A stretch of DNA of 64,000 bases from Patescibacteria group bacterium (GCA_943355005.1 CALRDV010000001.1:242059-306058); one strand, 5' to 3'; shown: positions 12,840-37,236, numbered from the stretch's first letter. Made by a program: numbers and translations. The notes: generated by a model from the letters alone, not told the origin.

Positions 12840-14042
12840 TTATAATATACTCACTACTTTTTTTAACTCACGAATAAAAACCTCTGCTTCGTTCATAGTA
12901 TTGTAAAAATAAACCGAAGCCCGTACTGACCCAGGGATTTGATGGGCGTAAAACCAGGAATGGACACAATGTTGGCCAGAGCGAATCATAATTTTTGATG
13001 TTTCGTCAAGCATAAGTGCAATCTGGTGATGGTCTTTTCCGGGAATATAAAAAGAACAGATTCCACCACGCTCTTTTGGATCGGATGGCCCAATGATTTT
13101 TAGTCCAGAGATGGTTTTTAGTTCTGTGGTTATATACTTGTTTAACATTTGTTCTTGTTGTTCTATAAATTCGAATCCAATTGTATTCAGATAATTGACA
13201 GCGGCACCAAGACCAATGATGCCGGCATAGTCTTGCAATCCTGCCTCAAATTTTTCAGGGGGTGGTAAAAACTCATGAGTTTCGTAGGTTGAAGAGGCTA
13301 CCGTGTCTCCTCCAACCATGAACGGATCTAGTTTCGTAAGGAGTGAATATTTCCCGTACAAAACTCCAGTGCCAGATGGGCCAAGCATTTTGTGTCCCGA
13401 GAAAGCGAGAAAATCTACATCAAGGTCTTGTACATCGATTTTTCGGTGAGGGACAGCTTGAGCGCCATCAAGGAGCACTAACGCGCCTGCTTTATGTGCT
13501 AACGTTATAATCTCATTGGCAGGGATCGTTACTCCATCTAGGTTCGAAGTAAATCCCAGCGACACCAATTTCACCCGGTTGTTTAGTGCCTGTTTATATG
13601 CCTCAAGATCAAAAGTGTTGTCTTCTTTGGAATAGATGATTTTGTACTCAATGCCAATTTTATCTCGCAAGACTTGCCAGGGGATAAGATTGGAATTATG
13701 TTCTTTGTCAGAGATAATCACAATATCTCCCGCTTTAAGTCCAAGCGAGTGTGCGACTAAATTGATCCCCTCGGTGGTATTTCTGGTAAACACGATCTCT
13801 TCTTTTCGCTTAGCGTGCAAAAATGTAGAAATAATCGAGCGCGCCTCTTCACATTTGTGAGTTACTTTAGCAGCCAGGTGATGCATGCTACGCCCTCCAC
13901 ATGCAGGGTAGTCTTGGTAATACTCATTTATAGCCTCAATCACCTGCTTAGGTCGCAAAGTTTGACAGGCATTGTCAAAATACACGACTTTGCAGTCGCG
14001 GAGTAATGGAAAATCCTGTCTGTGAGTATTCATATTTTTCAT
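12840..14042 (-). CDS. sufS: Cysteine desulfurase (SufS/CsdA, class V aminotransferase)
   Basis: The PLP-lysine motif SGHKMLGPSGTG and the C-terminal RSGQHC active-site Cys loop. Confidence 0.85.
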   Translation of the reverse strand: MKNMNTHRQDFPLLRDCKVVYFDNACQTLRPKQVIEAINEYYQDYPACGGRSMHHLAAKVTHKCEEARSIISTFLHAKRKEEIVFTRNTTEGINLVAHSLGLKAGDIVIISDKEHNSNLIPWQVLRDKIGIEYKIIYSKEDNTFDLEAYKQALNNRVKLVSLGFTSNLDGVTIPANEIITLAHKAGALVLLDGAQAVPHRKIDVQDLDVDFLAFSGHKMLGPSGTGVLYGKYSLLTKLDPFMVGGDTVASSTYETHEFLPPPEKFEAGLQDYAGIIGLGAAVNYLNTIGFEFIEQQEQMLNKYITTELKTISGLKIIGPSDPKERGGICSFYIPGKDHHQIALMLDETSKIMIRSGQHCVHSWFYAHQIPGSVRASVYFYNTMNEAEVFIRELKKVVSIL

Positions 14043-15943
14043 ATATTCTTAGTTTGATCAAAAGAAAATAACCGTAATCCGTTAGCAACAACTAATACGG
14101 TTACCCCCACGTCAGCAAAAATAGCTAAAGCCAGGCTACTTTTACCTAAGAGAGCTAGAGCAAGAAAAATGAACTTAACACCAATAGCTGCAGCAACATT
14201 TACTTTAATAGTTTGATTAGCGTTACGTCCTAACTTTATCAAGAAAGGAATAAGAGTCAGATTGTTATTCATGAGAGCAATATCGGCGTTTTCTACAGCG
14301 ACCTCAGACCCGATGGCTCCCATAGCTATGCCAACTGAAGCAGTTGAGAGTGAGGGAGCATCGTTAACACCATCACCGACCATCGCAACGTTTTTGTATT
14401 TTTTAACCAAGTTTTTGAGCTGAATTACTTTTTCGTCAGGCAAGAGTCTGGCATGAACCTCATCAATGCCAACTTCTTTGGCAACATAGCCAGCAGCCGA
14501 AGGATTGTCACCGGTTAGGATGACCGCTTTCACTCCATTTCTATGTAATTGTTTTATTGTTTGAGCACTCTCTGGTCTGATTTCATCAACAATTCCCAAA
14601 ACGCCTTCAATCTTGTTATCGTCGGTGACAACAATAGCAGTTTTCCCTTCCTTTTCAAATTGCTCGACAATTTTAATTACACGCTCGTCAACTTTGTGTT
14701 CTTCCATGACAAACTGAAGAGTGCCGATACAGTGATGCTTATCGACACAAACGAGACACTCACCACTAATACCTTTCCCCATAATCGCTTTGAAATTTGC
14801 ATACTCATGGTCTTTTTCTGGAAACAGTTTTGAATTCTCGATGATACTTTTGGCGATAGGGTGTTCGGAAAATGCCTCTGCGCCCGCCACGCAAGCCAGT
14901 AGTTCGCCCTTAGTGTAACCGTTAAGTGGTATGACATCAGACACCATCGGCTCTCCTTTGGTGAGCGTACGGGTTTTGTCGAAAGCAACTGCTCTGATTC
15001 GACCCATTTCTTCCAAAAATTGGCCACCCTTAATTAAAACGCCTCTCTTGGTAGCATTTCCAATGGCAGAAAAAATCGTAATGGGGGTGGAGATAACTAA
15101 GGCACAAGGACAAGCAATTAAGAGAAGGGTTAGACTTTGAGGAAACCAAGCATTGAAAGGCTGCCCAAGGATAACAACAGGTATGGCAGTAAGAAAAATG
15201 GATGCAATAAATACAACCGGGGTGTAATAAGACGCGAATTTTTCAATGAATCTAGCGGCTTGAGATTTGTGTTCCGCTGCTTGGAAAGTCAAATCTATAA
15301 TCTTGGCAAGCGTTGTGTCTTTGGAAGTCTTTGTTATTTTAATCTCCAGGTATCCCTGGCTGTTTAGTGTACCGGCATAAACCAACTCACCTTCATATTT
15401 ATTTTTTGGAAGTGGTTCGCCGGTAATAGTACTCTCATCAACCAACGACTCGCCTTTGACGACTACACCGTCAAGGGGGATATAGTCACCCGGTTTTACC
15501 ACCACAATGTCATCAATCGCAATATTTTCGATTGGAGTTTTGATTTCCTGTCCCTTAATGAGTGCCGTTTTTGGAGTTTTATCAACCAATTCCTCAAGAG
15601 CGTTTTGACTGCGGGTAATGCCAAATTCTTCCAGCGCTTCGCTAACGGCAAACAAAACTATGATAATTACCGCTTCTTCAAGCTCACCTAAGTAGATAGC
15701 TCCGAAGGTAGCTACTGTCATCAGTAAGTTGATATTAGAAAACTTAAGCCGGATTAAGCCCTGCAAACCACCAAATATGACGTCTTTCCCGAAGAAATAG
15801 ATAATGCTTCCAAAAAGGGGGTACTCTATAAACCATGGCAGGTGGTAGGAAAAAAGCGACAACAACTCCAGGGGAACTATTAAACCAAGCGCTGCAAATA
15901 GACGCTTGAATTTTGTTTCTTTAAATAATTCCGATATAAGCAT
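14039..15943 (-). CDS. P1B-type heavy-metal ATPase with no N-terminal metal-binding domain, a CPC motif, and an atypical DKTRT phosphorylation motif
   Basis: CPCALVISTP, DKTRTLT (G to R confirmed at DNA level) and VGDGVNDAPSL. Confidence 0.85.
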   Translation of the reverse strand: MLISELFKETKFKRLFAALGLIVPLELLSLFSYHLPWFIEYPLFGSIIYFFGKDVIFGGLQGLIRLKFSNINLLMTVATFGAIYLGELEEAVIIIVLFAVSEALEEFGITRSQNALEELVDKTPKTALIKGQEIKTPIENIAIDDIVVVKPGDYIPLDGVVVKGESLVDESTITGEPLPKNKYEGELVYAGTLNSQGYLEIKITKTSKDTTLAKIIDLTFQAAEHKSQAARFIEKFASYYTPVVFIASIFLTAIPVVILGQPFNAWFPQSLTLLLIACPCALVISTPITIFSAIGNATKRGVLIKGGQFLEEMGRIRAVAFDKTRTLTKGEPMVSDVIPLNGYTKGELLACVAGAEAFSEHPIAKSIIENSKLFPEKDHEYANFKAIMGKGISGECLVCVDKHHCIGTLQFVMEEHKVDERVIKIVEQFEKEGKTAIVVTDDNKIEGVLGIVDEIRPESAQTIKQLHRNGVKAVILTGDNPSAAGYVAKEVGIDEVHARLLPDEKVIQLKNLVKKYKNVAMVGDGVNDAPSLSTASVGIAMGAIGSEVAVENADIALMNNNLTLIPFLIKLGRNANQTIKVNVAAAIGVKFIFLALALLGKSSLALAIFADVGVTVLVVANGLRLFSFDQTKNI

Positions 15944-16726: not shown

Positions 16727-17854
16727 TTATATGCAGTCTGTTCCCAATCCTCCCACACAATTCTCAGTTGGTGGTTTACCACGCTCTGGGCATTTTTCTG
16801 AATAAATACAGGCCCTGTCGGTCACTGCCGAAAGAGTAGTGGGTGAAAGTTTAAAATTGCCGTCACTAAAGCTCAAGGTTATCCTATCTAAGTCTTTAAA
16901 CTCATATTGCCTAAAGTCTGTCGTTTGTTTATTTGCGCCCAAATACCACTCCACATTCGTCGGTAATTCTATCTTCCACGAATCTACGAGTGTCCCAAGT
17001 GTTACACCAGTCTTATGTTTATGAATTACTTCCTCGGTATCTGCATGTGAATGAATATCGGGATCTTTTTCAAAGAACTCAGGTTTAGATTGCAATAGTG
17101 TTTTCTTGCCGTTTATATACAATGCTAAATCGGCATGCTCATGCACTTTATCTCCAACTCCCTCTGCTGCAGGTTTAGGTGCTTTCAGAATCGCGGCCTG
17201 AATGAAAGTTTTAAAGTCCTCGATAGTTTTGGGATTAGGGATTTTTTCGCCATTTAAGAAAAAGGTTGGAGTGCCGTTAACGCCTAATTGTGTACCGGAT
17301 GTTTTATCTCGATTGACTCGTTCACTAACCTCTTTTGATTTTATGTCTTTCTTGTATTGATCCATATTGAGACTAATCTTTTTAGCGTACTCCTCGAAAA
17401 TAGCCGGATCAGGCTGTTGTTTCTCACCCCAAGACTGCTGGTTTTCATAGAGAATATCGTGCATTTCCCAGTATTTTCCTTGCCTACCCGCCGCTTCTAC
17501 AGCAAGGGCAGCAGGTAAACCATTTTTATGTCCTGGGAGAGGAAAATAACGGTTAACAAATCGAACTTCTGTTTTAAATTCATCTGCCAATTGTTTAACT
17601 AGAGGATAATATGCTCGACATGCTTCACATTCAAAATCAAGATATTCAACAAGGGTAACAGTGGCATCTTTATTGCCTTTGATGTAATCATCAGCGACTA
17701 CTTCAAGAAGTTTTTGCTTTTCTTCCGAAACAGGAGTTGTCCCATTGGGATTTGCGGCAGTAGAAGAATCGAATTTACTAAAATAGACAACAGCTACAGC
17801 TATGATTAAAATCGTGATCCCTATGATACTGAGTACAAATTTATCTTTTAACAT
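16727..17854 (-). CDS. DsbA-like thiol:disulfide oxidoreductase (CEAC) with a C-terminal extension
   Basis: A TM anchor and a thioredoxin fold with a CxxC motif (FECEACRAYYP). Confidence 0.6.
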   Translation of the reverse strand: MLKDKFVLSIIGITILIIAVAVVYFSKFDSSTAANPNGTTPVSEEKQKLLEVVADDYIKGNKDATVTLVEYLDFECEACRAYYPLVKQLADEFKTEVRFVNRYFPLPGHKNGLPAALAVEAAGRQGKYWEMHDILYENQQSWGEKQQPDPAIFEEYAKKISLNMDQYKKDIKSKEVSERVNRDKTSGTQLGVNGTPTFFLNGEKIPNPKTIEDFKTFIQAAILKAPKPAAEGVGDKVHEHADLALYINGKKTLLQSKPEFFEKDPDIHSHADTEEVIHKHKTGVTLGTLVDSWKIELPTNVEWYLGANKQTTDFRQYEFKDLDRITLSFSDGNFKLSPTTLSAVTDRACIYSEKCPERGKPPTENCVGGLGTDCI

Positions 17855-17918: not shown

Positions 17919-18323
17919 TTAACGTACATTAACAGTAAAGTCCTTCTTTTCGCTACTTCCATCGGTCATTTTAACCGTAATACTAACTTTCCATGGACCC
18001 AGCATAGTCATCTTTGCAGAAATCGAGTATCGCCCATTACCCTGAGAAGTCGCGTTGCCATTTTGTTCACCCATATCCATAGTTGTCATATTGATGTTGT
18101 ATGAAACCTTCGCGTCATTAACCACTTTTCCATTTTTATCCTTTAAATCAATCAAAAATGTAGCCGGACCAGGTTTTAGGGGGTTGGGATTTGTGGAGAG
18201 TGAAATTAATCCACTGCCATTTGTACTCGTGCCAAGCACTGAGGATGAATTGACCTTTAAACTTAAATATCCAATTGCGCCAAACATAAGTATCAAAAGT
18301 ATTAATAGTATTTTAGTGTTCAT
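17919..18323 (-). CDS. Small secreted beta-sandwich protein (YtkA/FixH-like)
   Basis: A signal peptide and about 110 aa of beta-rich domain. Confidence 0.35.
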   Translation of the reverse strand: MNTKILLILLILMFGAIGYLSLKVNSSSVLGTSTNGSGLISLSTNPNPLKPGPATFLIDLKDKNGKVVNDAKVSYNINMTTMDMGEQNGNATSQGNGRYSISAKMTMLGPWKVSITVKMTDGSSEKKDFTVNVR

Positions 18324-18337
18324 ATTATCTTCCTAAA

Positions 18338-18871
18338 TTATTCCACTTTGCAGAGAAATGGTTGATTAATTTTTTTCATCGTGTAAATAATAGCCATAAG
18401 TAATATTGCAATGCCAAGAAAACCGAACTCCTGACCTCTAAAAGGCAATATCCCCAGAACTGTAGAGGCAGAACTAAGTCCTATCAGAGAAGTTAGGACA
18501 ACTGAACCACAGGACGCACAACCAACTCCTAGTAAGCTCGTAGCTACACCAAGAAGAGATACTCCCATTTCTCGCTGAACCATGATAGTTTGACGTAAAT
18601 AGTAGATGAGCAAACTGGTTTGAATACCAGTAAGAGTGGCACTGATTATGGTGACCGTTCGGGATAGCGGAGAAAAGTTAGTTTGGATCGATCCCAACAA
18701 ACTAGTTACTAGGTTTGTTTTTTGCCAGACAGTCATGGTTTTGGAGGTCATGGTTTTAGTAATAAGATGAATATTTGGCAACCACGCGGCCAGTGCGATC
18801 ACAGTCAAGGTTACGATTGCTATAACTAGCAAATACTTAGGTTGCTGGATTATTCTAAGTAAAGTTGTCAT
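18338..18871 (-). CDS. Polytopic membrane protein with an intramembrane CASC (CxxC) motif
   Basis: Hydrophobicity profile and a single CxxC motif. Confidence 0.3.
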   Translation of the reverse strand: MTTLLRIIQQPKYLLVIAIVTLTVIALAAWLPNIHLITKTMTSKTMTVWQKTNLVTSLLGSIQTNFSPLSRTVTIISATLTGIQTSLLIYYLRQTIMVQREMGVSLLGVATSLLGVGCASCGSVVLTSLIGLSSASTVLGILPFRGQEFGFLGIAILLMAIIYTMKKINQPFLCKVE

Positions 18872-18874
18872 ATA

Positions 18875-19678
18875 TTACTGGAGAAGAGGATCAATGACAG
18901 CTTGGAAAGCAGCAAATGGTTGTGCTCCAATAAGTAAGTCGCCGTCAATCTTTCCATCACTGGTTGATTTACCGATTAAGAAAGTTGGTGTACCAGATGC
19001 TCCGGCTGCAGAACCATCAGCTATATCTTTCTTCACCTCATCTTCCATCGCTTTGTTGGATAGACAGCTAGTAAATGAGTTTGTATTTAATCCCAAATCA
19101 CTTGCAATAGTTTTGATTTTGGCGTCATCTAGTCCGTTTCCGTTAGATGTGGTTCGCTTAAAGATTTCGCCATGGAATTCAAAGTATTTTTTGTCTCCAC
19201 CTTGTTCTTTAGCACAATTTGCCGCCACCGCTTCCTTTGTGGCCATGGGATCATGAAAGGATAAGGGAAAGTCTCTAAACACTAGCTTGGCTTTACCAGT
19301 GTCGATATATTCCTTGATCAGTTTTGGATAGGTATCAGTAAAATGACGCTTACAGAAAGGACATTCATAATCTGAAAATTCAATAATGGTGATTGGAGCG
19401 TTTTTATCACCTAATATAGGATCATCATCGATACTAGCGACACCTTTAGTTGGTTGTTGTGGTTGCGCGGGAGCTGCTTTCGCCTGATCATTGGTGGGAG
19501 CTTGAGCTCCTGCGGTAACACCGCCCTCTTCTAACAATTTAACTTTAGTGGTAAGTGAACCAAGGAAGAAAGATCCAATAATTAGTAAAATTACGAGAAC
19601 TGGTGTGAGAATGGGATTGAATTTATTTTCTGTCATATTACTACAAAGTGTAGTAGATATTAAGACAGTCGTCAACAC
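18875..19678 (-). CDS. DsbA-family thioredoxin (CPFC)
   Basis: A TM anchor, YECPFCKRHF and a DsbA-like fold. Confidence 0.7.
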   Translation of the reverse strand: MLTTVLISTTLCSNMTENKFNPILTPVLVILLIIGSFFLGSLTTKVKLLEEGGVTAGAQAPTNDQAKAAPAQPQQPTKGVASIDDDPILGDKNAPITIIEFSDYECPFCKRHFTDTYPKLIKEYIDTGKAKLVFRDFPLSFHDPMATKEAVAANCAKEQGGDKKYFEFHGEIFKRTTSNGNGLDDAKIKTIASDLGLNTNSFTSCLSNKAMEDEVKKDIADGSAAGASGTPTFLIGKSTSDGKIDGDLLIGAQPFAAFQAVIDPLLQ

Positions 19679-19690
19679 TATCTAACTACA

Positions 19691-20683
19691 TCAATATTGG
19701 GAACTAAAATTTCTGAGAGATTGTTTCGACATGTGGCTTTGCATATCTAAGAGAGCCCTCTGACGGCACACTAGGGCGCAATTGTCGCTATTATCAGCAC
19801 ATAGCACAACTGCGTCACCACCTGATTCATGAAGCTCTATCGCTTTGACTGGAGTGACCATCAAGCCTACGAGAATTAGAAGCGAAATAATACTCAAGCT
19901 TAAATTTTTATAACCGATTTTATTGTAGGTAGTCTTCTGTGAATAAAGTGATTGAATCCTAGCTTCAAGGCTATCTTCAGAAATAATATCAGGGATAAAA
20001 GCAAAGTGTGGCATCGGTTCATATCTTAAAAGTTTTTTTAAGACCTCTCCGATCGACTTATTTTCACTCATTCCATATACCGCTTCAGAATCCGCATGGA
20101 TTTCCCTACCGGTACGATAAACTCTGACAAAATCTGAGATAACTGGGAAAAATGGAAATAATGATTCAATCATGCTGGCTATAAAAAGGGTTAATGAGTC
20201 TCTATGCTCCAAATGAGACTTTTCATGCCTAAGTATTACCTCAAGCTCATTCATACTCATGAGTTCAATCATCCCTGTTGATACATAAATCTTGGGGCTC
20301 GTGATGCCAAAGCAGAAAGCTTGAGGCTTATTTTGATTAATAACCGATACATGGTTAGTTAGCCCAACTTTATCCAAAAGATCCGCAAGACCTTCGTATT
20401 TATTTACCGCCTGCTTTTTAAGTCTTAGTTTAAGAGAATATATTGCGATGATAGTTTTGAGTATTTTAAACAGAGTAAATAATGCTCCAAAGAAGAGGAC
20501 TCCAACAATTATTTTTCCCAAATCACCAGGGAGATGTAGATTCAACGCATTAACCATTTCTTGACAATAATAGATACTGTGGTGAATCAGTATTTGAAAG
20601 TATTTAAATACGACAAAAAAATAACTTATCATCAAAAACGATAATAGACCGACAAAGCCTATCAAGTAATTATTTATTTTCAT
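19691..20683 (-). CDS. M56-family (BlaR1/MecR1-like) membrane metalloprotease. It lacks the penicillin-binding sensor domain and has a Cys-rich C-terminus.
   Basis: HEKSHLEHRD (HExxH), four TM segments and a C-terminal C-x6-C-x3-C motif. It overlaps the blaI-like gene. Confidence 0.7.
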   Translation of the reverse strand: MKINNYLIGFVGLLSFLMISYFFVVFKYFQILIHHSIYYCQEMVNALNLHLPGDLGKIIVGVLFFGALFTLFKILKTIIAIYSLKLRLKKQAVNKYEGLADLLDKVGLTNHVSVINQNKPQAFCFGITSPKIYVSTGMIELMSMNELEVILRHEKSHLEHRDSLTLFIASMIESLFPFFPVISDFVRVYRTGREIHADSEAVYGMSENKSIGEVLKKLLRYEPMPHFAFIPDIISEDSLEARIQSLYSQKTTYNKIGYKNLSLSIISLLILVGLMVTPVKAIELHESGGDAVVLCADNSDNCALVCRQRALLDMQSHMSKQSLRNFSSQY

Positions 20684-21125
20684 TATGTTTCTCCAAGAGT
20701 TCTAAAAAGTATTTTTTCTTTTCTTTGGGCAGCTCTTCAATTGATTCAGCAAATGAAGCGATCGCTGTATCTCCAAATGACTGAAAAAACTTATTAAAGA
20801 AGGAGCCAGCTATTGATTTGCTGTAATCCTCTTTAGAAATTTTTGGCGAGTAAAGAATGGCAAAGTCTTTATCGTTTCTTTTGAGTAAACCCTTCTCTTG
20901 AAGTCTTGAAAGTACGGTTGCAACGGTTGTGTATGCTAATTCTTTTGTTTCAGATATCTTTTTTAGTACATCACGGACTGAACATGAGTCGTTATCCCAA
21001 ACGATGTTCATTACTTCTTGTTCGAGTTCGCTCAAAGCTTTTATCTTCATATGTCTACTACAGATTGTAGAGACTACCATGAAACATATCAATAGATATT
21101 TGATAGCAGAGATTAATATCAACAA
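20670..21125 (-). CDS. BlaI/MecI/CopY-family transcriptional repressor. The likely true start is the ATG at 21050 (MKIKALSELEQ...).
   Basis: A winged-helix N-terminus typical of the penicillinase-repressor/CopY family. It is immediately upstream of the M56 gene. Confidence 0.75.
   Translation of the reverse strand: MLILISAIKYLLICFMVVSTICSRHMKIKALSELEQEVMNIVWDNDSCSVRDVLKKISETKELAYTTVATVLSRLQEKGLLKRNDKDFAILYSPKISKEDYSKSIAGSFFNKFFQSFGDTAIASFAESIEELPKEKKKYFLELLEKHNENK
21054..21077. promoter_or_regulatory. TACA/TGTA-type dyad (CTACA-GAT-TGTAG overlapping GTAG-AGA-CTAC), a putative BlaI/CopY-type operator
   Basis: Perfect palindromes read directly. They lie 4-27 nt upstream of the probable blaI/copY start. 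Confidence 0.45.
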
Positions 21126-21129
21126 GATG

Positions 21130-21173
21130 GCCCGTCCAGTCGCGATTAATTATTTATAATCGCCGTAACGGGC
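21130..21173. repeat. Nested inverted repeat (GCCCGT...GCGATTA-N8-TAATCGC...ACGGGC) between the copA stop and the blaI-like gene
   Basis: Read directly. It may be a terminator or insulator hairpin, or a second operator. Confidence 0.4.
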
Positions 21174-21196: not shown

Positions 21197-24100
21197 TTAT
21201 TTTGCTTCGCTAATTTTGAATCCTTCTTTAACAAAGTGGTAGTTATCAGCCACTGAGTTAGATTTTGCCAAGACTCCTGAAATGATCACGTCATTCCCGA
21301 AGAATCCGGAAATAGTGTCGCCTTCTTTGGTGAAAAGCTTTTCCTTCATCATCAATTGGGCTTCATCGTAGCCGATATACACTGGTGTGTATTTCTTGCC
21401 ACCAATATAGACAGTATTAAATCCATCGCTTGGGAGTTTACTAGCTAACTCCTTGGAGGAGGTGCCGTTGATCATATAAAACTGCTTTTCCATGCCTTCC
21501 GCAGTTTTGGCTAGGACTACGTTTTTATCGACCTGTACTTGACCGGTCTTTTCCTTATTTTCCATATTTGTAGGTGCGGCCATAGTAGAGCTGAACCTGG
21601 CAAACTCGATAAACAAGAAAGTGAACGCTATCATCATGACAGCTGGTGCAAACATTGAGATATAGTTCTTCTTTCCTGGCTTGTAACGGCGCAAGAGTAG
21701 TGAATTCCCTACAACTGACACAGAACTTAAAGCCATGGCAAGGCCTGCAAGCTCTGGCTTTAATACCAATCCGACGAACGAGAATATGCGTGCGGCAATT
21801 GGAATTCCGATGACGTTATAGAAGAGCGCAAAGAACATGTTTTGCTGTATCTTCTGTACGGTCGTTTTGGAAAGTTCCAATGCGTGCACAACATCCCGGA
21901 GATCATTTTTGATAATCACGATGCCACCAGTTTCCATGGCCACATCCGTGCCAGATCCCATGGCAATACCCAAATCAGCTTGAGCAAGTGCGGGTGCATC
22001 ATTAATACCATCTCCAACCATTGCTACTTTCTTACCAGCATCTTGAAGTTTTTTGACTTCATTAGCTTTGTCCTGAGGCAATACCTCTGCCAGAATGTTT
22101 GTTATGCCAACCTGAGAGGCAATGGCTTTGGCAGTTTTTGTATTGTCACCAGTAATCATCCAGACCTCGATACCCATTTTGGTAAGCATTTCAACGGCTT
22201 CTCGAGAAGTCTCCTTGACGGTATCGGCTACTCCAATGAATCCAAGAACTCCCTTTTTGGTCGCCAGAATCATGGCAGTTTTACCTTGTTCTTCCAGACG
22301 AGTGAGCTTTCGGTCGAATTTGGCTATGTCTAAGCCCAACGTATCAGTAATGAGCTTACGGTTGCCAAAGAAATACTCAACTTTTCCAATCGTTCCTTTT
22401 ACACCATGCCCTGGAATGGCTGAGAATTTATCCACTTCTTTGAGAACAACCCCTTCTTCCTGTGCATAAGAATATATGGCTTCAGCTAGTGGATGTTCAG
22501 ATTGCTTTTCGAGACTAGCCGAAATCATGAGCACTTCTTCCTCGTCAAGTTCCCCTAAGTCCTCTACATCCGTCACTTCGGGCTTGCCCTTGGTGATCGT
22601 GCCTGTTTTATCAAAAACAATAGTATTGATCTTGCTGGCACTCTCAAGAGGCTCTCCACCTTTGATGAGGATCCCATGCTCAGCACCAACCCCAGTACCT
22701 ACCATAATGGCCGTAGGGGTAGCTAGACCAAGCGCACACGGGCAAGCAATAACAATCACGGCAGTGAATGCCATAAGGGCAAATGAGAGTGGTGCCCCCA
22801 AGAAGAAGTACCAGACCACAAATGTGAGCGCAGCTATCGCGATAACGCCTGGTACAAAGTATGCAGAAATACGATCTGCTACTGCCTGAATAGGTGCTTT
22901 AGACCCCTGCGCATCCTCAACGAGGCGAATGATCTGGGATAAAGTGGTTTCCGATCCAATACGGGTTGCCATAAACTCGAAGCTACCTACTTTATTAATA
23001 GTTCCGCCGATAACCATATCATCAACATGTTTTTCAACCGGCATACTTTCTCCCGTGATCATTGATTCATCGACTGAGGAGGAACCTTTCATAATTACGC
23101 CGTCTACTGGAACCTTTTCTCCGGGACGAACCACAATAATGTCATTTTTCACAACCTGATCAGTTGGGATATCTAGAGTTTCACCATTTCGTATTACTCT
23201 GGCAGTTTTTGCCTGAAGTCCCATGAGTTTTTTAATTGCCTCACCAGTTCTTCCTTTTGCTTTTGCCTCGAGATATTTACCCAAGATGACAAAGGTGATT
23301 AAGAACGCTGCTGTTTCAAAATATAGCTCTGGAATCTTCGCTCCAGCCAATCCAATAAGAGAATTGGTGGTCGCGTAGTACTGAATAAAATTGACAGCAC
23401 TGTAAAAATACGCCACTGATGTACCTATGGCTATCAGGCTATCCATGTTAAAGGTACGCATCTTTAGAGCTGAAATCATACCTTTATAGAAGCTCGAGCC
23501 GGTAATAAATTGAACCGGAGTAGCTAAAATAAACGACACTATGCCTATATAAGGAAGAAGTGTTTTACCACCAGGCAAGAAACTAAAGAAATCAAGGAAC
23601 ATGAAATATATCATTGGGAAAGATAAGATCAGGGCAAACAAGAACTTTTTCCATTGCCCTTTGATTTCTGATAATTGACGCTTGGCTTGAGCTTGTGAAT
23701 CTTCTGAGCTGGCTAGCATTCCCTTATATCCAGCTTTTTCCACTGCTTTTATTAGATCATCAGTTTTTGCTGATCCAGTGTTATAGAGAATCGAAGCTTT
23801 TTCTGAGGCAAAATTAACTTTTGCTTCTGCAACTCCCGGAACTTTCTTTAATTGACGTTCGATAATAGATGCACACGATGAGCAGTGCATGCCTGAAATA
23901 ACTAGGCTAGTCCGTTCTGTTTTACCTGTTAGGGCAACTTGTGATACAACGCCTTCAGATGTTATGGATTGTCCAGATTCTGTTCTTTGTGCTGATCCGA
24001 AACGCAAGATTCCTTTAATTGTCCAGTGTCCATCCTCGTCTTGGCCTACTTTACCGTCAATTTCAATTTCTGGAGGAAGTGTAAATAATGGCGTTGCTTG

Positions 24101-24340
24101 CTGTGCAAGGTTCATGCCTGTTTTTCCCACGATGAGACTCTGATACCCGGCACTTTTTACCGCGTCTATAATCGCCTGATCGGTTACCTGGCCATTGGTA
24201 GTGATAATTGTTGCTTTTCCAGCTTTGTGATCGACACTCACATCTTTGATCCCCGGAAGGGAAATAAGTTCGTCTTTAATCAGCATTTCGCATGATTGGC
24301 AGTGCATTCCTTTAATATCTAAGTTGATTGTTCTTTTCAT
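21197..24340 (-). CDS. copA: Cu(I)-translocating P1B-1 ATPase CopA with two N-terminal HMA domains, plus an extra C-terminal TM helix and a C-terminal domain of about 150 aa
   Basis: GMHCQSCE and [25 protein letters not shown] and [10 protein letters not shown]. After the canonical last TM there is another hydrophobic helix ([23 protein letters not shown]) and then a Met-containing soluble domain. Confidence 0.9.
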
Positions 24341-26390: not shown

Positions 26391-26410
26391 ATTAAGATTT
26401 TATGAAGATT
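26391..26410. promoter_or_regulatory. Island motif copy 1: ATTAAGATTTTATGAAGATT, upstream of the HMA-DsbD_2 fusion/copZ/copA operon
   Basis: Exact 20-mer shared with copy 5, 8-23 nt from the start codon. Confidence 0.6.
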
Positions 26411-31181: not shown

Positions 31182-31201
31182 ATTAAGAATTTATGAAGAT
31201 A
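31182..31201. promoter_or_regulatory. Island motif copy 2: ATTAAGAATTTATGAAGATA, upstream of the cupredoxin-like gene
   Basis: 18/20 match to the consensus. Confidence 0.55.
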
Positions 31202-31449: not shown

Positions 31450-31469
31450 GATTAAGAAAGTATGAAGAT
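31450..31469. promoter_or_regulatory. Island motif copy 3: ATTAAGAAAGTATGAAGATT, upstream of the DUF2933 gene
   Basis: 17/20 match. Confidence 0.55.
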
Positions 31470-32929
31470 TAGGACTTGGCTTTCAGAGGAAGCGATATGG
31501 TGACGTGTGTTCCCTTACCGACTTTGCTTGCTATTGAAATAGTGCCACCGTGGGACTCTATGATTCCTTGAGCAATTGCGAGTCCAAGACCTGAGCCAAG
31601 TGTTTTAGCAGTTTTTGACCCACGATAGAAACGGTCGAATATATGGGGTAGGTCTTTTTCTAGAATGCCATTGCCTGAATCAATAACTTCAACCACCGCC
31701 TCACTGTTTTTGGTACGCAGAAAAATAGAAATTGTCTCATTCTTCGGCGTATATTTCACTGCGTTATCGAGGATATTAAGAATTGCGCGGGAAAGTTTGT
31801 CTTCTGATCCGGTAACCTGAATGCCTTCGGCAATATGACTTTTGACCGTGATATGTTTTTGAGCGGCTAGTTTGACGGCAATATCTTTCAGTTCCACAAG
31901 TACAGCCGTAAGATCAGTTTGTTGATTCGTACTTATTGCCTTGTCGGCGCCGATCCACGCTAAATCGAGAATGTTTCTGATCGTAGTAGACAATCGATTG
32001 ACATCGATAAGTGTTTCTCCAAACGCATTTTTATATTCCTCATTCGTGCGTTTTTTTGACAACGCTAACTCAATTTCTCCTTTTAACGTAGCTACTGGTG
32101 TTTTCAGTTCATGGGCAACGTCACCGATAAATTGACGTTCTCTTTTAAAAGATTCGTGAAGTCTTTGGAGTAATTCGTTAAACGTTACTGCAAGTTCTGA
32201 CACTTCATCTTCGGTATTGGGAACAGCTACGTGTCGATTCAAATCTTGGCTAGTAATTGATTGGAGGTCTGAAGATATCTTCTGAATCGGTTGTAAGGCG
32301 CTTTTTGCCAGTAAATAGCTCCCGATTATTGCAGGGATTGCGATAAGGAGATAAACCGCGGTCAGAGTCAAAATCAGGCTTTTGAAGGAGTCGTAGATTG
32401 CATCAACCGGATCACCCATAAAAATAAGACCGTTCGATTCACCATTTTGTATTATGGGGAATACGCCAATCCGGAGTGTTGTTGTGCCAATACGGCGTTC
32501 TACAAAGGTAGGTTTTATGATATTACTGGACTTTTCAATAAGGTCTTTAAGTATAGTATTTTCGTCCGCTCCGACTTGAGAACTGCCCGTAATTTTCCCG
32601 GATTTGTCGGTAATAAGGACGAGCATTCCCGGCATTTCCATAAATTGCTGACTAATAATTCCTTGGTTAAAAACTCCTTGAGCCATGCTCGGCTGTTCAT
32701 CTCCCACCATCTTCGTTAGCGTTTCTGCATGGGCAATGATCGAACGGTCTGTTTGGTTAAGAAGTGTCTGCTTGGTGATGTAGAAAAATACGGCAAAAAC
32801 AATAGCTGTACTGACAAAGAAAGCAATTGAATACCAAAGTGTTAGACGAAATCGGATTGATTTTTTATTCATGTTATCCAATCTTATACCCCACGCCGTG
32901 AACGGTCTGGATAAGCTTAACCTTTGCAC
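31469..32929 (-). CDS. Sensor histidine kinase (two TM segments, periplasmic domain, HAMP, HisKA, HATPase_c). The likely start is at 32872.
   Basis: H-box VAHELKTP and G1/G2 boxes (DSGNGI, GSGLGLAIA). Confidence 0.85.
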   Translation of the reverse strand: MQRLSLSRPFTAWGIRLDNMNKKSIRFRLTLWYSIAFFVSTAIVFAVFFYITKQTLLNQTDRSIIAHAETLTKMVGDEQPSMAQGVFNQGIISQQFMEMPGMLVLITDKSGKITGSSQVGADENTILKDLIEKSSNIIKPTFVERRIGTTTLRIGVFPIIQNGESNGLIFMGDPVDAIYDSFKSLILTLTAVYLLIAIPAIIGSYLLAKSALQPIQKISSDLQSITSQDLNRHVAVPNTEDEVSELAVTFNELLQRLHESFKRERQFIGDVAHELKTPVATLKGEIELALSKKRTNEEYKNAFGETLIDVNRLSTTIRNILDLAWIGADKAISTNQQTDLTAVLVELKDIAVKLAAQKHITVKSHIAEGIQVTGSEDKLSRAILNILDNAVKYTPKNETISIFLRTKNSEAVVEVIDSGNGILEKDLPHIFDRFYRGSKTAKTLGSGLGLAIAQGIIESHGGTISIASKVGKGTHVTISLPLKAKS

Positions 32930-33539
32930 CGGTATCTACTTTTTTCCTGAGAGTGCCGACAAACACATCAACCACGTTACTCATACCATCAAAATTGTAA
33001 TCCCAGACATGCTCGATAATCATCGTACGTGATACGACTTCTCCCTTATGGCGCATAAGGAGCTCAAGAACCGCAAATTCTTTCGGGGTGAGGGTGATAG
33101 CCTTATTCGCTCTTTGCACACTGTGTTTTAGTGGATCGAGAATAAGATCATTTTCAGACAAAATCGGTGATATATCCTGATGACTGCGGCGAATGAGGGC
33201 GTGTACTCGTGAGCGAAACTCAACGAAAGAGAATGGCTTGGTTATATAGTCGTCAGCACCGCTATCAAGTCCGGCGACTTTATCTTCTAATGTAGATTTA
33301 GCGGTGAGCATAAGCACAGGGGTCTTAATACTCTTTTTACGCAGTTCTTTACACACTTGTAGACCGTCAAGTTTGGGAAGCATGATATCGAGCACAATAA
33401 GGTCGTACTGCTCACTTTCGGCCAAATATTGACCTTCTTCACCGTCAAATGCTTGATCAACAGCAAAGCCGTCCTCGATAAAACCCTTTTTGATGATATT
33501 GGAGAGACGACGTTCGTCTTCGACAATTAAGACTCTCAT
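32874..33539 (-). CDS. OmpR-family response regulator (REC domain plus winged helix)
   Basis: MRVLIVEDE...DIMLPKLDG...; C-terminal trans_reg_C domain. Confidence 0.9.
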   Translation of the reverse strand: MRVLIVEDERRLSNIIKKGFIEDGFAVDQAFDGEEGQYLAESEQYDLIVLDIMLPKLDGLQVCKELRKKSIKTPVLMLTAKSTLEDKVAGLDSGADDYITKPFSFVEFRSRVHALIRRSHQDISPILSENDLILDPLKHSVQRANKAITLTPKEFAVLELLMRHKGEVVSRTMIIEHVWDYNFDGMSNVVDVFVGTLRKKVDTGAKVKLIQTVHGVGYKIG

Positions 33540-33550
33540 GAATCTATTAT

Positions 33551-33580
33551 ATTAAAAATTCATGAAGAAATCATTAAGAC
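33551..33580. promoter_or_regulatory. Island motif copy 4: ATTAAAAATTCATGAAGAAA plus a third half-site (TCATTAAGAC), upstream of the response-regulator gene
   Basis: Three AAGA-type half-sites at about 11-bp phasing. Confidence 0.5.
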
Positions 33581-34361: not shown

Positions 34362-34664
34362 TTAGGACTTATCTAGTTCTTTAATCATAATATCAGGAAT
34401 TTCCCCAATAGTGGATGTTGATAGTCGGTAATACATATTTTTCCCATCCCGTCTTGACGTTACTATGCCTACATTTTTTAATACCATGAGATGTTGTGAA
34501 ATATTTGATTGTCGATACTTCATGAAACTAACGAGCTCGTGCACATTTAATTCTTGCTTTCTCAGTAGCGACACTATGTTAAGACGCTTAGCATTAGCAA
34601 AGGCCTTAAAGATTTGCAATTCCTTTGTAAACATTACTGAAGTCATATGACTTAGACTCCACAT
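34362..34664 (-). CDS. ArsR/SmtB-family transcriptional regulator with no Cys residues
   Basis: A winged HTH typical of ArsR. There is no canonical Cys metal site. Confidence 0.7.
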   Translation of the reverse strand: MWSLSHMTSVMFTKELQIFKAFANAKRLNIVSLLRKQELNVHELVSFMKYRQSNISQHLMVLKNVGIVTSRRDGKNMYYRLSTSTIGEIPDIMIKELDKS

Positions 34665-37216: not shown

Positions 37217-37236
37217 ATTAAGATTTTATGAAGATT
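37217..37236. promoter_or_regulatory. Island motif copy 5: ATTAAGATTTTATGAAGATT, upstream of the DUF1573/CcdA/ArsR operon
   Basis: Exact 20-mer identical to copy 1. Confidence 0.6.

What the first reader, a model, noticed from the sequence alone, without database searches (positions are those of the whole stretch)
19691..21173. CopY/BlaI-type repressor paired with a sensor-less M56 protease carrying a C-terminal Cys cluster, plus a TACA/TGTA dyad operator
The M56 (BlaR1-like) protein is only 330 aa and lacks the beta-lactam sensor domain. It ends in C-x6-C-x3-C, a plausible metal-sensing module. The partner is a BlaI/CopY-family repressor. The palindromes CTACA-GAT-TGTAG and GTAG-AGA-CTAC lie directly upstream of the probable repressor start at 21050. 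The pair sits just downstream of the copA operon. Together this suggests a metal-triggered proteolytic derepression circuit rather than an antibiotic sensor.
Basis: partly seen in the sequence, partly recalled or inferred. Interest (0 to 1): 0.55.

Follow-up and report, generated by a model that had tools for sequence, protein, structure and literature searches.

The report
Sensor-less BlaI/M56 switch, copper-island DsbA operon
A repressor and a membrane protease of the kind that normally senses penicillin have here lost the antibiotic sensor. In a whole group of tiny uncultured bacteria they control a conserved set of envelope thiol-oxidoreductase and copper-defence genes through a well-defined DNA operator.

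Summary
The window holds a 126-aa BlaI-family repressor (20670-21050, -), a 330-aa M56 protease without a beta-lactam sensor (19691-20683, -), a C-x6-C-x3-C cluster in its tail, and the dyad CTACA-GAT-TGTAG.

The dyad is a genuine operator. In 54 related loci from Microgenomates/WWE3 (candidate phyla radiation) it holds two fixed positions. One overlaps the -10 box of the repressor's own promoter.

In other genomes the same dyad sits upstream of a multicopper oxidase, CsoR-CopA operons, HMA-DsbD_2-cupredoxin genes and CopZ-like genes. The module lies in metal islands in 35 of 41 long loci. This supports a copper-linked, proteolysis-driven derepression circuit.

The Cys triad is kept in about 75-88% of homologs. 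Seven loci with a one-Cys tail keep the same wiring. The invariant candidate sensor residues are C40 in the outer loop and H285, D290 and C295 in the tail.

The second palindrome is not conserved. copA in this window carries a different regulatory box and is not under this dyad.

The closest precedent is the copper-dependent PetR/PetP system of cyanobacteria. I rate this a new variant of a known kind.

The parts
21064..21092 (-). Promoter P1 of the repressor-protease operon: -35 TTGATA (21092-21087), 17-nt spacer, -10 TACAAT (21069-21064)
   Evidence: Consensus scan, 10 of 12 matches. The same layout is found upstream of the orthologous repressors.
21056..21072 (.). Operator 1: CTACA-ATC-TGTAG(TA) dyad (core 21058-21070). 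It overlaps the -10 box of P1 and ends 8 nt before the repressor ATG
   Evidence: Conserved at this position in 35 loci exactly and in 9 with one mismatch, out of 48.
20670..21050 (-). BlaI/MecI-family winged-helix repressor, 126 aa. No CopY-type Cys tail. Conserved sFGDxAIASFAES around the position that aligns with the BlaI N101/F102 cleavage site
   Evidence: Pfam PF03965, 1.3e-27. NCBIfam scores are below all equivalog cutoffs. PDB alignments. Ortholog alignment. Public gene call of 126 aa.
19691..20683 (-). M56 zinc metalloprotease, 330 aa, three predicted TM helices, no beta-lactam sensor. Its start overlaps the repressor stop by 14 nt
   Evidence: Pfam M56/M48. H153, E154 and E194 are invariant and H157 is invariant or nearly so. 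AF2 pLDDT 78.6. Best solved-fold match is S. aureus BlaR1 8exq, E 3e-6.
20528..20584 (-). Predicted extracytoplasmic loop, residues 34-52 (HHSIYYCQEM...). C40 is invariant; H34, H35, Y38, Y39 and Q41 are strongly conserved and M43 is the majority residue (50/80)
   Evidence: Topology is inferred from the AF2 helices and the charge distribution.
19694..19855 (-). Predicted extracytoplasmic tail, residues 277-330: beta-hairpin AIELHesGgDavvLC, then a helix carrying C302 and C306. The Cys cluster C295-C306 spans 19766-19801
   Evidence: C295 79/80, C302 70/80, C306 71/80, H285 75/80, D290 78/80, E283 71/80. Tail pLDDT is only about 57-63.
19647..19675 (-). Promoter P2: -35 TTGACG (19675-19670), 17-nt spacer, -10 TACACT (19652-19647)
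   Evidence: In orthologous loci the -35 box is usually a perfect TTGACA.
19639..19655 (.). Operator 2: perfect 7-3-7 dyad TACTACA-CTT-TGTAGTA. It overlaps the -10 box of P2 and ends 2 nt before the DsbA-like ATG (the 11-nt core ends 5 nt before it)
   Evidence: An exact dyad is found just after the M56 gene in 43 of 52 loci.
18875..19636 (-). Membrane-anchored DsbA-like thiol:disulfide oxidoreductase, 253 aa, CPFC active site. First gene under operator 2
   Evidence: Pfam Thioredoxin_4/DSBA. It is the next gene after M56 in 46 of 52 loci and the target at 39 of 81 metagenome promoter sites.
18338..18871 (-). Uncharacterised membrane protein, 177 aa, with invariant G-C-x-S-C-G, LP-x2-G-x-EF and a C-terminal Cys. 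It starts 3 nt after the DsbA-like stop
   Evidence: No Pfam or NCBIfam hit. 229 homologs, none named beyond 'hypothetical protein'. Invariant columns. Not related to DsbD_2 by hhalign.
17919..18323 (-). YtkA/FixH-like exported Ig-fold protein, 134 aa, probable last gene of the operator-2 operon
   Evidence: Pfam YtkA 1.6e-12 and FixH 2.9e-5. Syntenic in many loci.
16727..17854 (-). Second DsbA-like protein, 375 aa, with a promoter-like site of its own (17901-17873). Membership of the regulon is uncertain here
   Evidence: A DsbA2-like gene follows a dyad promoter at 2 metagenome sites.
21197..24340 (-). CopA-type P1B ATPase directly upstream. It is context only and is not preceded by the TACA dyad
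   Evidence: Pfam. Its operon start at 26382 is preceded by a different box, TCTTCATAAAATCTTAAT, at 26391-26408.

Best explanation
This is a two-gene, proteolysis-based envelope signalling switch of the BlaI/BlaR1 type. In Microgenomates/WWE3 bacteria it has been adapted to copper-associated envelope stress.

**Off state.** A dimer of the 126-aa winged-helix repressor sits on a 7-3-7 inverted repeat, consensus (TA)CTACA-N3-TGTAGTA. The left half of the repeat contains the -10 hexamer (TACAAT or TACACT) of two sigma-70-type promoters. P1 drives the repressor and the overlapping M56 gene (autoregulation). P2, placed directly after the M56 stop codon, drives a membrane-anchored DsbA-like oxidoreductase, a CxxC membrane protein and a YtkA/FixH-like protein. 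Both transcripts would be leaderless or nearly so.

**Sensor layout.** The M56 protein spans the membrane three times. Its gluzincin protease domain faces the cytoplasm. On the outside it exposes a short loop (H34, H35, Y38, Y39, C40, M43) and a 54-residue tail (E283, H285, D290, C295, then C302-x3-C306).

**Proposed trigger and response.** I propose that the outer Cys/His/Asp surface binds copper, or another thiophilic metal, or is oxidised by copper-driven thiol chemistry. That event would activate the protease. The protease would cut the repressor in the conserved AIAS-FAES segment of its dimerisation domain, and the regulon would be derepressed.

**Shown here by sequence and comparison:** the parts, the operator and its two conserved positions, the regulon, and the metal-island context.

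**Inferred from family knowledge:** repression by occlusion of the -10 box, cleavage of the repressor, and the membrane topology.

**Hypothesis:** the identity of the signal and the role of the cysteines.
For: **Parts and family.**
- Pfam Penicillinase_R and Peptidase_M56.
- The AF2 model's best match among solved structures is S. aureus BlaR1, E 3e-6.
- The metal-binding motif residues H153, E154 and E194 are invariant; H157 is invariant or nearly so.

**Operator.**
- The exact 13-mer dyad occurs only at the two promoters in 64 kb.
- There are 100 exact core dyads in 662 kb of 54 related loci, against about 20 in shuffles. The flanks are strongly constrained: C at -1 in 83/89, and GTA at +11 to +13 in 84-86/89.
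- The dyad lies upstream of the repressor in 44 of 48 loci allowing one mismatch, and after M56 in 43 of 52 loci.
- It always overlaps a TTGAxx-N17/18-TACAnT promoter.

**Regulon.**
- A DsbA-like gene follows M56 in 46 of 52 loci.
- Further dyad promoters sit upstream of a two-domain multicopper oxidase, CsoR (together with a CsoR-like box), HMA-DsbD_2-cupredoxin followed by CopZ and CopA, a CopZ-like gene and an ArsR-like gene.
- An independent metagenome scan found 81 promoter sites: 39 DsbA-like, 12 HMA/DsbD_2, 8 Mem177-fusion, 6 BlaI, 2 DsbA2-like and 1 CsoR.

**Context.** Metal genes are present in 35 of 41 loci of at least 8 kb. The window itself is a metal island.

**Sensor.**
- C40 is invariant and C295 is present in 79/80.
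- H285 is present in 75/80 and D290 in 78/80.
- The full Cys triad is present in 70/80.
- Every one of 111 full-length cluster representatives keeps at least one tail Cys, and 83 keep the triad.
- A paralogous M56 next to a copA operon in Collierbacteria has its own C-P-H-x3-C tail.

**Repressor.** It has no CxC motifs, and AIASFAES is over 90% conserved at the position that aligns with the BlaI/MecI N-F cleavage site.

**Precedent.** PetP, a sensor-less M56 protease, degrades the BlaI-family PetR only when copper is present. PetR binds GACA-N3-TGTC, which has the same 3-nt spacing (bioRxiv 10.1101/2020.07.31.226407).
Against: - There are no experimental data of any kind. The organisms are uncultured.
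- The tail model has low confidence (pLDDT about 57-63, and 44 for loop residues 41-50). I could not obtain coordinates to measure Cys-Cys distances.
- Seven of 54 loci lack C302 and C306 yet keep the dyad after M56, and six of the seven have DsbA1 called next. The C-x3-C pair is therefore not essential.
- Extracytoplasmic cysteines next to a DsbA-type oxidase could simply be structural disulfides.
- In this window copA, the cupredoxin operon and the response-regulator gene carry a different box, TCTTCATAnnTTCTTAAT. It occurs 6 times against 0.2 expected, and the island encodes an OmpR-type two-component system. A separate copper or metal sensor may already exist, and the M56 pair may sense something downstream of metal stress.
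- The one universally conserved target is a thiol oxidoreductase, not a metal transporter.
Confidence: 0.55

Rival explanations
1. The system is an envelope thiol-redox homeostasis sensor. The outer cysteines (C40, C295, C302, C306) are substrates of the DsbA-like oxidase. When disulfide formation fails, or when reductive or oxidative thiol stress occurs, the loop-tail module misfolds or changes its disulfide state. The protease is then activated and more DsbA-like protein and its membrane CxxC partner are made. Copper would act at most indirectly.
For: - The only target conserved in nearly all loci is the DsbA-like gene, followed by a membrane CxxC protein or a DsbD_2 protein.
- Further Cys-rich exported proteins lie under the same dyad.
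- There are four conserved outer cysteines.
- A separate two-component system with its own box sits on the copA operon in this window.
Against: - In other genomes dyad promoters sit upstream of copper-specific genes: a multicopper oxidase, CsoR-CopA, CopZ and HMA proteins.
- The module is almost always embedded in metal islands.
- Conserved His, Asp and Glu next to the cysteines look more like a metal site than a pure disulfide switch.
Confidence: 0.25
2. The system is a BlaI/M56 pair that responds to an unrelated or unknown envelope cue, such as a peptide, cell-wall damage or a host-derived signal. The tail cysteines are only structural. This would resemble the many sensor-less BlaR-like proteins whose signal is unknown, for example CenR of C. 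difficile.
For: - Only about 6% of M56 proteins carry a beta-lactam sensor. Most have short, diverse tails with unknown ligands (PMC13492132).
- The tail is modelled with low confidence.
- A conserved C-terminal N-F-S motif, present in 48/80, could be a protein-binding tag.
Against: The regulon and the neighbourhood are consistently tied to copper and thiol chemistry. An unrelated cue would not explain this.
Confidence: 0.12
3. The repressor acts as a CopY-type direct metal sensor. It binds Cu(I) itself and leaves the DNA, and the M56 protein is accessory.
For: - The repressor's similarity to CopY_TcrY equals its similarity to BlaI (51.9 against 51.7 bits).
- The half-sites are TACA/TGTA, as in the cop box (PMC5772342).
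Against: - There is no C-terminal CxC...CxC. The only cysteine (C23) is replaced by Ile in the closest relatives.
- The score is far below the CopY cutoff of 121.95.
- The spacer is 3 nt rather than 2 nt.
- The repressor gene overlaps the M56 gene by 14 nt here and in nearly all loci where both are called.
Confidence: 0.04
4. It is a degenerate beta-lactam sensing BlaI/BlaR1 system.
For: Only the family membership and automatic annotations such as 'beta-lactamase regulating signal transducer'.
Against: There is no transpeptidase or PBP domain. The blaR1_generic score is 43.7 against a cutoff of 400. No beta-lactamase or PBP gene was found at any of the dyad-linked targets examined.
Confidence: 0.01

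Closest known systems
PetR/PetP of Synechocystis sp. PCC 6803 (BlaI-family factor plus sensor-less M48/M56 membrane protease; copper-dependent degradation of PetR)
   Same: - The gene pair overlaps at the repressor stop and protease start.
- The protease ends shortly after its last TM helix and has no penicillin-binding domain.
- The repressor lacks the CopY copper-binding motif.
- The operator is an inverted repeat with a 3-nt spacer (GACA-N3-TGTC there, TACA-N3-TGTA here).
- Both are linked to copper.

Source: bioRxiv 10.1101/2020.07.31.226407.
   Different: - PetRP controls only petE, petJ and two small genes. A review notes that it gives no copper-homeostasis response (PMC10141476). Here the regulon is envelope thiol oxidoreductases plus copper-resistance genes.
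- PetP's proposed ligands are two Met residues in the TM2-TM3 loop and it has no tail. Here the candidates are an invariant Cys and two His in the loop, plus a 54-residue Cys/His/Asp tail.
- The half-site sequence differs.
- PetR also acts as an activator.
BlaI/BlaR1 and MecI/MecR1 of Staphylococcus aureus and Bacillus licheniformis
   Same: - Same repressor fold family and same M56 gluzincin membrane protease.
- TACA/TGTA half-sites.
- The repressor gene precedes the protease gene and is autoregulated.
- The repressor segment aligned with the N101/F102 cleavage site is conserved.
   Different: - There is no extracellular penicillin-binding sensor: 330 aa against 585 aa.
- The model has three TM helices, whereas published BlaR topology describes four (recalled from the literature, not tested here).
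- The spacer is 3 nt rather than 2 nt.
- The targets are not a beta-lactamase or PBP2a.
- The aligned scissile pair is S-F rather than N-F.
CopY/TcrY/CopR copper repressors of Enterococcus, Streptococcus and Lactococcus
   Same: - Same winged-helix family.
- TACA...TGTA operator half-sites.
- Control of copper-related genes.

Source: PMC5772342.
   Different: - CopY senses Cu(I) directly through C-terminal CxC motifs and has no protease partner. Here the motif is absent and an M56 protease gene overlaps the repressor gene.
- The cop box has a 2-nt spacer.
Other sensor-less BlaIR-like pairs: CenIR of Clostridioides difficile and BlaI/BlaR of Mycobacterium tuberculosis and M. abscessus
   Same: An M56 protease without a transpeptidase domain, paired with a BlaI-like repressor and with a small dedicated regulon next to the pair (PMC13492132).
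   Different: Their signals are unknown and their regulons concern the cell wall or energy metabolism. Their tails are unrelated and mostly unstructured. No Cys-rich tail or metal context has been reported for them.
Copper-linked periplasmic thiol-oxidoreductase systems (Salmonella ScsABCD; DsbC-dependent copper tolerance in E. coli). Recalled from my own knowledge, not checked here
   Same: The output logic is the same: a DsbA/DsbG-like protein with a membrane redox partner (DsbD-type) is deployed against copper-induced mis-oxidation of envelope cysteines.
   Different: They belong to different regulatory families, and the membrane partner here (Mem177) has no known family.

Membership tests
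BlaI/MecI/CopY winged-helix repressors (Pfam PF03965) | Penicillinase_R domain scoring above the curated threshold | tested here: met
   96.9 bits against a cutoff of 22.6, residues 6-111. PDB hits to BlaI and MecI at 1e-13 to 1e-9.
BlaI/MecI/CopY winged-helix repressors (Pfam PF03965) | Palindromic operator with TACA/TGTA half-sites overlapping the regulated promoter | tested here: met
   The dyad overlaps the -10 box of P1 and P2. It is conserved in 54 loci. The spacer is 3 nt rather than 2 nt. Physical binding was not tested.
BlaI/MecI/CopY winged-helix repressors (Pfam PF03965) | Inactivation by cleavage in the C-terminal dimerisation domain (N101/F102 in S. aureus BlaI) | tested here: inconclusive
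   The aligned position is S99-F100, inside the over-90% conserved AIASFAES. Cleavage cannot be tested with these tools.
CopY/TcrY copper repressors (TIGR02698) | C-terminal CxC...CxC (or single CxC) metal-binding motif | tested here: not met
   There is no Cys in the C-terminal half in any of 33 orthologs.
CopY/TcrY copper repressors (TIGR02698) | Score above the equivalog cutoff | tested here: not met
   51.9 bits against a cutoff of 121.95.
CopY/TcrY copper repressors (TIGR02698) | cop box TACAnnTGTA (2-nt spacer) | tested here: not met
   The spacer is 3 nt at both window sites and at all 100 exact sites in related loci. cop box definition from PMC5772342.
BlaR1/MecR1 beta-lactam sensor-transducers | Membrane M56 gluzincin domain (HExxH plus a downstream Glu) with a BlaR1-like fold | tested here: met
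   PF05569 at 54.6 bits against 31. H153, E154 and E194 are invariant and H157 is invariant or nearly so. Foldseek best hit 8exq, E 3e-6, TM-score 0.47.
BlaR1/MecR1 beta-lactam sensor-transducers | C-terminal extracellular penicillin-binding (transpeptidase-like) sensor domain | tested here: not met
   Only 54 residues follow the last TM helix and there is no PF00905 hit. blaR1_generic scores 43.7 against a cutoff of 400.
PetR/PetP-type copper-dependent BlaI/M56 pairs | Sensor-less M56 protease whose gene overlaps that of a CopY-motif-less BlaI-family factor | tested here: met
   14-nt overlap between the two genes. Domain content. Description of PetRP.
PetR/PetP-type copper-dependent BlaI/M56 pairs | Copper-dependent degradation of the transcription factor by the protease | not testable with these tools
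   This needs extracts or reconstitution. Only indirect support is available, from a copper-centred regulon and context.
PetR/PetP-type copper-dependent BlaI/M56 pairs | Regulon petE/petJ with a GACN5GTC core operator | tested here: not met
   The operator is TACA-N3-TGTA. The targets are DsbA-like, multicopper oxidase, CsoR and HMA genes. The hosts are non-photosynthetic candidate-phyla-radiation bacteria.
PetR/PetP-type copper-dependent BlaI/M56 pairs | Closer sequence relationship to PetP than to other M56 proteins | not tested
   The PetP sequence (BAA16703.1) was not retrievable with the tools available.

The most novel reading that the evidence does not exclude
A lineage-wide extracytoplasmic copper or thiol-stress sensor of a new type exists in candidate-phyla-radiation bacteria. 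An M56 protease reads copper, or copper-driven cysteine oxidation, through a composite outer site. The site is built from an invariant loop Cys/His pair and a Cys/His/Asp tail. The protease then destroys a BlaI-type repressor and switches on a dedicated envelope regulon from leaderless promoters. The regulon comprises a DsbA-like oxidoreductase, a previously undescribed CxxC membrane protein family, a multicopper oxidase and CsoR-CopA. This would be the first BlaI/BlaR-type system shown to control metal resistance rather than antibiotic resistance or cofactor choice.
Probability: 0.45. Interest if true: 0.65.

Novelty: new variant of a known kind. Interest (0 to 1): 0.5.

Why it matters
BlaI/BlaR-type pairs are abundant, but for almost all sensor-less members neither the signal nor the regulon is known (PMC13492132).

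Here comparative data alone give three things:
- a precise operator;
- a regulon, including a conserved DsbA-like/CxxC-membrane-protein operon;
- a short list of candidate ligand residues (C40, H34/H35, E283, H285, D290, C295, C302, C306).

All of these can be tested directly in a heterologous host.

If copper is the signal, the PetRP principle of metal-triggered regulated proteolysis would extend from cofactor switching in cyanobacteria to metal and envelope-thiol defence in the candidate phyla radiation. Almost nothing is known experimentally about gene regulation in that group.

The work also flags an uncharacterised membrane protein family (Mem177) as a likely partner of extracytoplasmic DsbA-like enzymes.

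Tried and rejected
1. **Longer repressor ORF.** The 151-aa TTG ORF (20670-21125) is rejected. The Pfam match, the ortholog alignment and public gene calls all support the ATG at 21050.
2. **Second palindrome GTAG-AGA-CTAC.** It is not conserved even in 93-97% identical relatives.
3. **Third TACAN3TGTA match at 86-96.** It lies inside a coding region and lacks the conserved flanks, so it is chance.
4. **A dyad upstream of copA or other island operons in the window.** None was found with up to 2 mismatches in intergenic DNA. A different box, TCTTCATAnnTTCTTAAT, was found instead.
5. **CsoR or multicopper oxidase homologs in the window.** None were found by tblastn; only an ArsR-like gene turned up.
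6. **Mem177 as a cryptic DsbD_2/CcdA relative.** The hhalign probability is 0.5%, so this is rejected. It has no Pfam or NCBIfam match. Its AF2 model was too poor (pLDDT 63) to justify a fold search.
7. **Cys-Cys distances in the M56 model.** Model coordinates are not exposed, so only secondary structure and confidence could be used.
8. **Literature on BlaI/M56 and copper in Patescibacteria.** Nothing relevant was found.
Full report
**What is in the window.**

On the minus strand, copA (21197-24340) is followed by a 126-aa protein with a Penicillinase_R domain (ATG 21050, stop 20670). Next comes a 330-aa Peptidase_M56/M48 protein (20683-19691), whose start lies 14 nt inside the repressor gene.

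The M56 protein carries HEKSH and has no transpeptidase domain. The cluster is followed by 24 more residues.

The dyad CTACA-GAT-TGTAG (21058-21070) ends 8 nt before the repressor ATG. Public gene calls on the source contig give the same 126-, 330- and 253-aa proteins.

**The dyad is an operator and there are two copies.**

- The exact pattern CTACANNNTGTAG occurs only twice in 64 kb.
It starts 36 nt after the M56 stop codon, and its 11-nt core ends 5 nt before the ATG of a DsbA-like gene.
- Both dyads contain the -10 hexamer of a good sigma-70-type promoter: TTGATA-17-TACAAT and TTGACG-17-TACACT. A bound repressor would therefore occlude the -10 box.
- The ATG lies 10-13 nt after the -10 box, so the mRNAs should be leaderless or nearly so. 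This last point is an inference.

**Comparative test of the operator.**

A genome scan returned 54 loci encoding relatives with 32-97% identity. Nearly all come from Microgenomates (Gottesman-, Woese-, Collier-, Roizman- and Levybacteria) or WWE3.

- These loci hold 100 exact TACAN3TGTA sites in 662 kb, against about 20 in shuffles.
- The flanks are strongly constrained: C at -1 in 83 of 89 sites, and GTA after the dyad in 84-86 of 89.
- The sites fall at two fixed places. One is just upstream of the repressor ATG: 35 exact plus 9 with one mismatch, out of 48. The other is just after the M56 gene: 43 of 52.
- Every site sits inside a TTGAxx-N17/18-TACAnT promoter.

**Regulon and context.**

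- The gene after M56 is a membrane-anchored DsbA-like protein in 46 of 52 loci.
- That gene is followed by one of two alternatives. The first is a 177-aa membrane protein with invariant G-C-x-S-C-G plus a YtkA/FixH-like protein, as in this window. The second is a DsbD_2-cupredoxin protein plus a small HMA protein.
- Additional dyad promoters in the loci sit upstream of several metal-related genes:
  - a two-domain multicopper oxidase (L006, L007, L009, L013);
  - CsoR, with a CsoR-like ATATCCC...GGGGGATAT box between the dyad and the ATG (L024, L037, L049, L051);
  - an HMA-DsbD_2-cupredoxin gene followed by CopZ- and CopA-like genes (L025, L029);
  - a CopZ-like gene and an ArsR-like gene.
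- Metal genes are present in 35 of 41 loci of at least 8 kb.
- An independent metagenome scan for TTGACA-N14/15-TACTACAN3TGTAGTA gave 81 sites. The downstream genes were DsbA-like (39), HMA/DsbD_2 (12), a 487-aa fusion of the Mem177 domain (8), BlaI (6), DsbA2-like (2) and CsoR (1). The rest included DUF3105, BNR and Cys-rich proteins.
- The window itself is a metal island from 11.9 to 31.2 kb. It holds three P-type ATPases, DUF305, cupredoxins, CopZ and three DsbA-like genes.

**The sensor candidate.**

The AF2 model (pLDDT 78.6) has the following elements:

| Residues | Element |
|---|---|
| 5-33 | TM helix |
| 37-39 | short strand |
| 53-91 | TM helix |
| about 100-246 | protease domain |
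| 258-276 | TM helix |
| 280-295 | beta-hairpin |
| 300-322 | helix |

- The best match among solved structures is S. aureus BlaR1.
- Charge distribution places the protease domain in the cytoplasm and both the 34-52 loop and the tail outside. This topology is inferred.
- In 80 homologs C40 is invariant. Other counts are C295 79, D290 78, H285 75, E283 71, H34 71, H35 64, C302 70 and C306 71. The full triad is present in 70 of 80.
- Among 111 full-length representatives of 50%-identity clusters, 83 keep the triad and all keep at least one tail Cys.
- Seven of the 54 loci have a one-Cys tail yet keep the dyad after M56, and six of them have the DsbA-like gene called next. The conserved core is therefore C40 plus the E-x-H...D...C hairpin, and the C-x3-C pair is an accessory.

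**The repressor.**

- It scores equally for BlaI and CopY models and is below every equivalog cutoff.
- It has no C-terminal CxC motif.
- The stretch sFGDxAIASFAES is over 90% conserved. It aligns with the LVLN/FAKN segment of S. aureus BlaI that holds the known N101/F102 cleavage site (the cleavage site itself is from established knowledge).

**Comparison with known systems.**

- Sensor-less M56 proteins are the rule, not the exception. About 6% have a transpeptidase domain, and 96% lie next to a BlaI-like gene (PMC13492132).
- A copper-dependent member is known. PetP degrades PetR only with copper, and PetR binds GACA-N3-TGTC.
- PetRP regulates only plastocyanin, cytochrome c6 and two small genes, not copper homeostasis. 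Its proposed ligands are two loop methionines.
- The present family shares the principle and the 3-nt spacer. It differs in half-site, sensor surface, regulon and host lineage.
- CopY membership fails on all three tested features. BlaR1 membership fails on the sensor domain.

**A caveat specific to this window.**

copA is not under the TACA dyad here. The operon that contains it starts at 26382 and is preceded by TCTTCATAAAATCTTAAT. This 18-bp box occurs six times in the window against 0.2 expected. Copies lie upstream of the cupredoxin operon and of the response-regulator gene of an OmpR-type two-component system at 31469-33539. The island therefore has two regulatory circuits. The M56/BlaI pair governs the thiol-oxidoreductase operon.

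This keeps open the rival reading that the switch senses envelope thiol or disulfide stress, possibly caused by copper, rather than the metal itself.

**Verdict.**

- The operator and regulon assignments are strong (about 0.9).
- Proteolytic derepression is likely by family analogy (about 0.8).
- Copper or copper-driven thiol chemistry as the signal, read by the outer Cys/His surface, is the best-supported hypothesis but remains unproven (about 0.55).
- I rate it a new variant of a known kind, of moderate interest.

Noticed in passing
window 26391-26408, 31182-31199, 31451-31468, 33551-33568, 37217-37234 (all -), 14036-14053 (+): An 18-bp box, TCTTCATAnnTTCTTAAT, occurs 6 times against 0.2 expected. 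Copies lie upstream of the HMA-DsbD_2-cupredoxin/copZ/copA operon, the cupredoxin operon, the response-regulator gene and a DUF1573 gene. It is probably the binding site of the OmpR-type two-component system at 31469-33539.
   Followed up: partly
window 18338-18871 (-); also L048:8020-9483 and L091: Mem177 is an uncharacterised membrane protein family restricted to Microgenomates, with no Pfam or NCBIfam hit. Its invariant features are G-C-x-S-C-G, LP-x2-G-x-EF and a C-terminal Cys. In the operon it alternates with DsbD_2-cupredoxin, and it also occurs fused to a Cys-rich exported domain under the same dyad. It may be a redox partner of the DsbA-like protein.
   Followed up: partly
L024:4315, L037:11128, L049:2342, L051:1664: These promoters combine the BlaI-type dyad at the -10 box with a CsoR-like inverted repeat (ATATCCC-N4/5-GGGGGATAT) just before a csoR gene. 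This suggests dual repression of csoR-copA operons.
   Followed up: partly
L025:334-1599 and L029:38-553; L025:~7600, L029:~7600: Collierbacteria carry a second, divergent BlaI-M56 pair directly upstream of a dyad-controlled operon that begins with HMA-DsbD_2 and continues with CopZ and CopA. Its M56 tail is C-P-H-x3-C. The main pair there has a dyad with a spacer one nucleotide shorter (TACTAC-AATA-GTAGTA).
   Followed up: partly
window 21050 and 19636; most of L001-L054: The start codons lie only 2-12 nt after the dyad, which is 7-17 nt after the -10 box. No Shine-Dalgarno sequence is visible by eye. The transcripts of this regulon are therefore predicted to be leaderless.
   Followed up: no
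window 19694-19720 (last 9 residues of M56): The extreme C-terminus of the M56 family carries a conserved N-(F/Y)-(S/T) motif, present in 48 of 80. Its meaning is unknown; it could be a protein-binding tag or a glycosylation sequon.
   Followed up: no
L093:6149, L137:3279: Exported proteins of about 250 aa with a dense Cys motif (CEFCCG...ACGCAHSQAMRG) and no Pfam match lie under the same promoter and dyad.
   Followed up: no
window 34362-34664 (-): An ArsR-family regulator gene is followed by a Polyketide_cyc2 (SRPBCC-type) gene just beyond the two-component system. This is a third regulator in the metal island.
   Followed up: no
L001-L054 record titles: Many contigs that clearly belong to Microgenomates are deposited as 'uncultured Gammaproteobacteria' or 'Pseudomonadales', and one as 'Sulfotelmatobacter'. 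The record taxonomy is unreliable for these MAGs.
   Followed up: no
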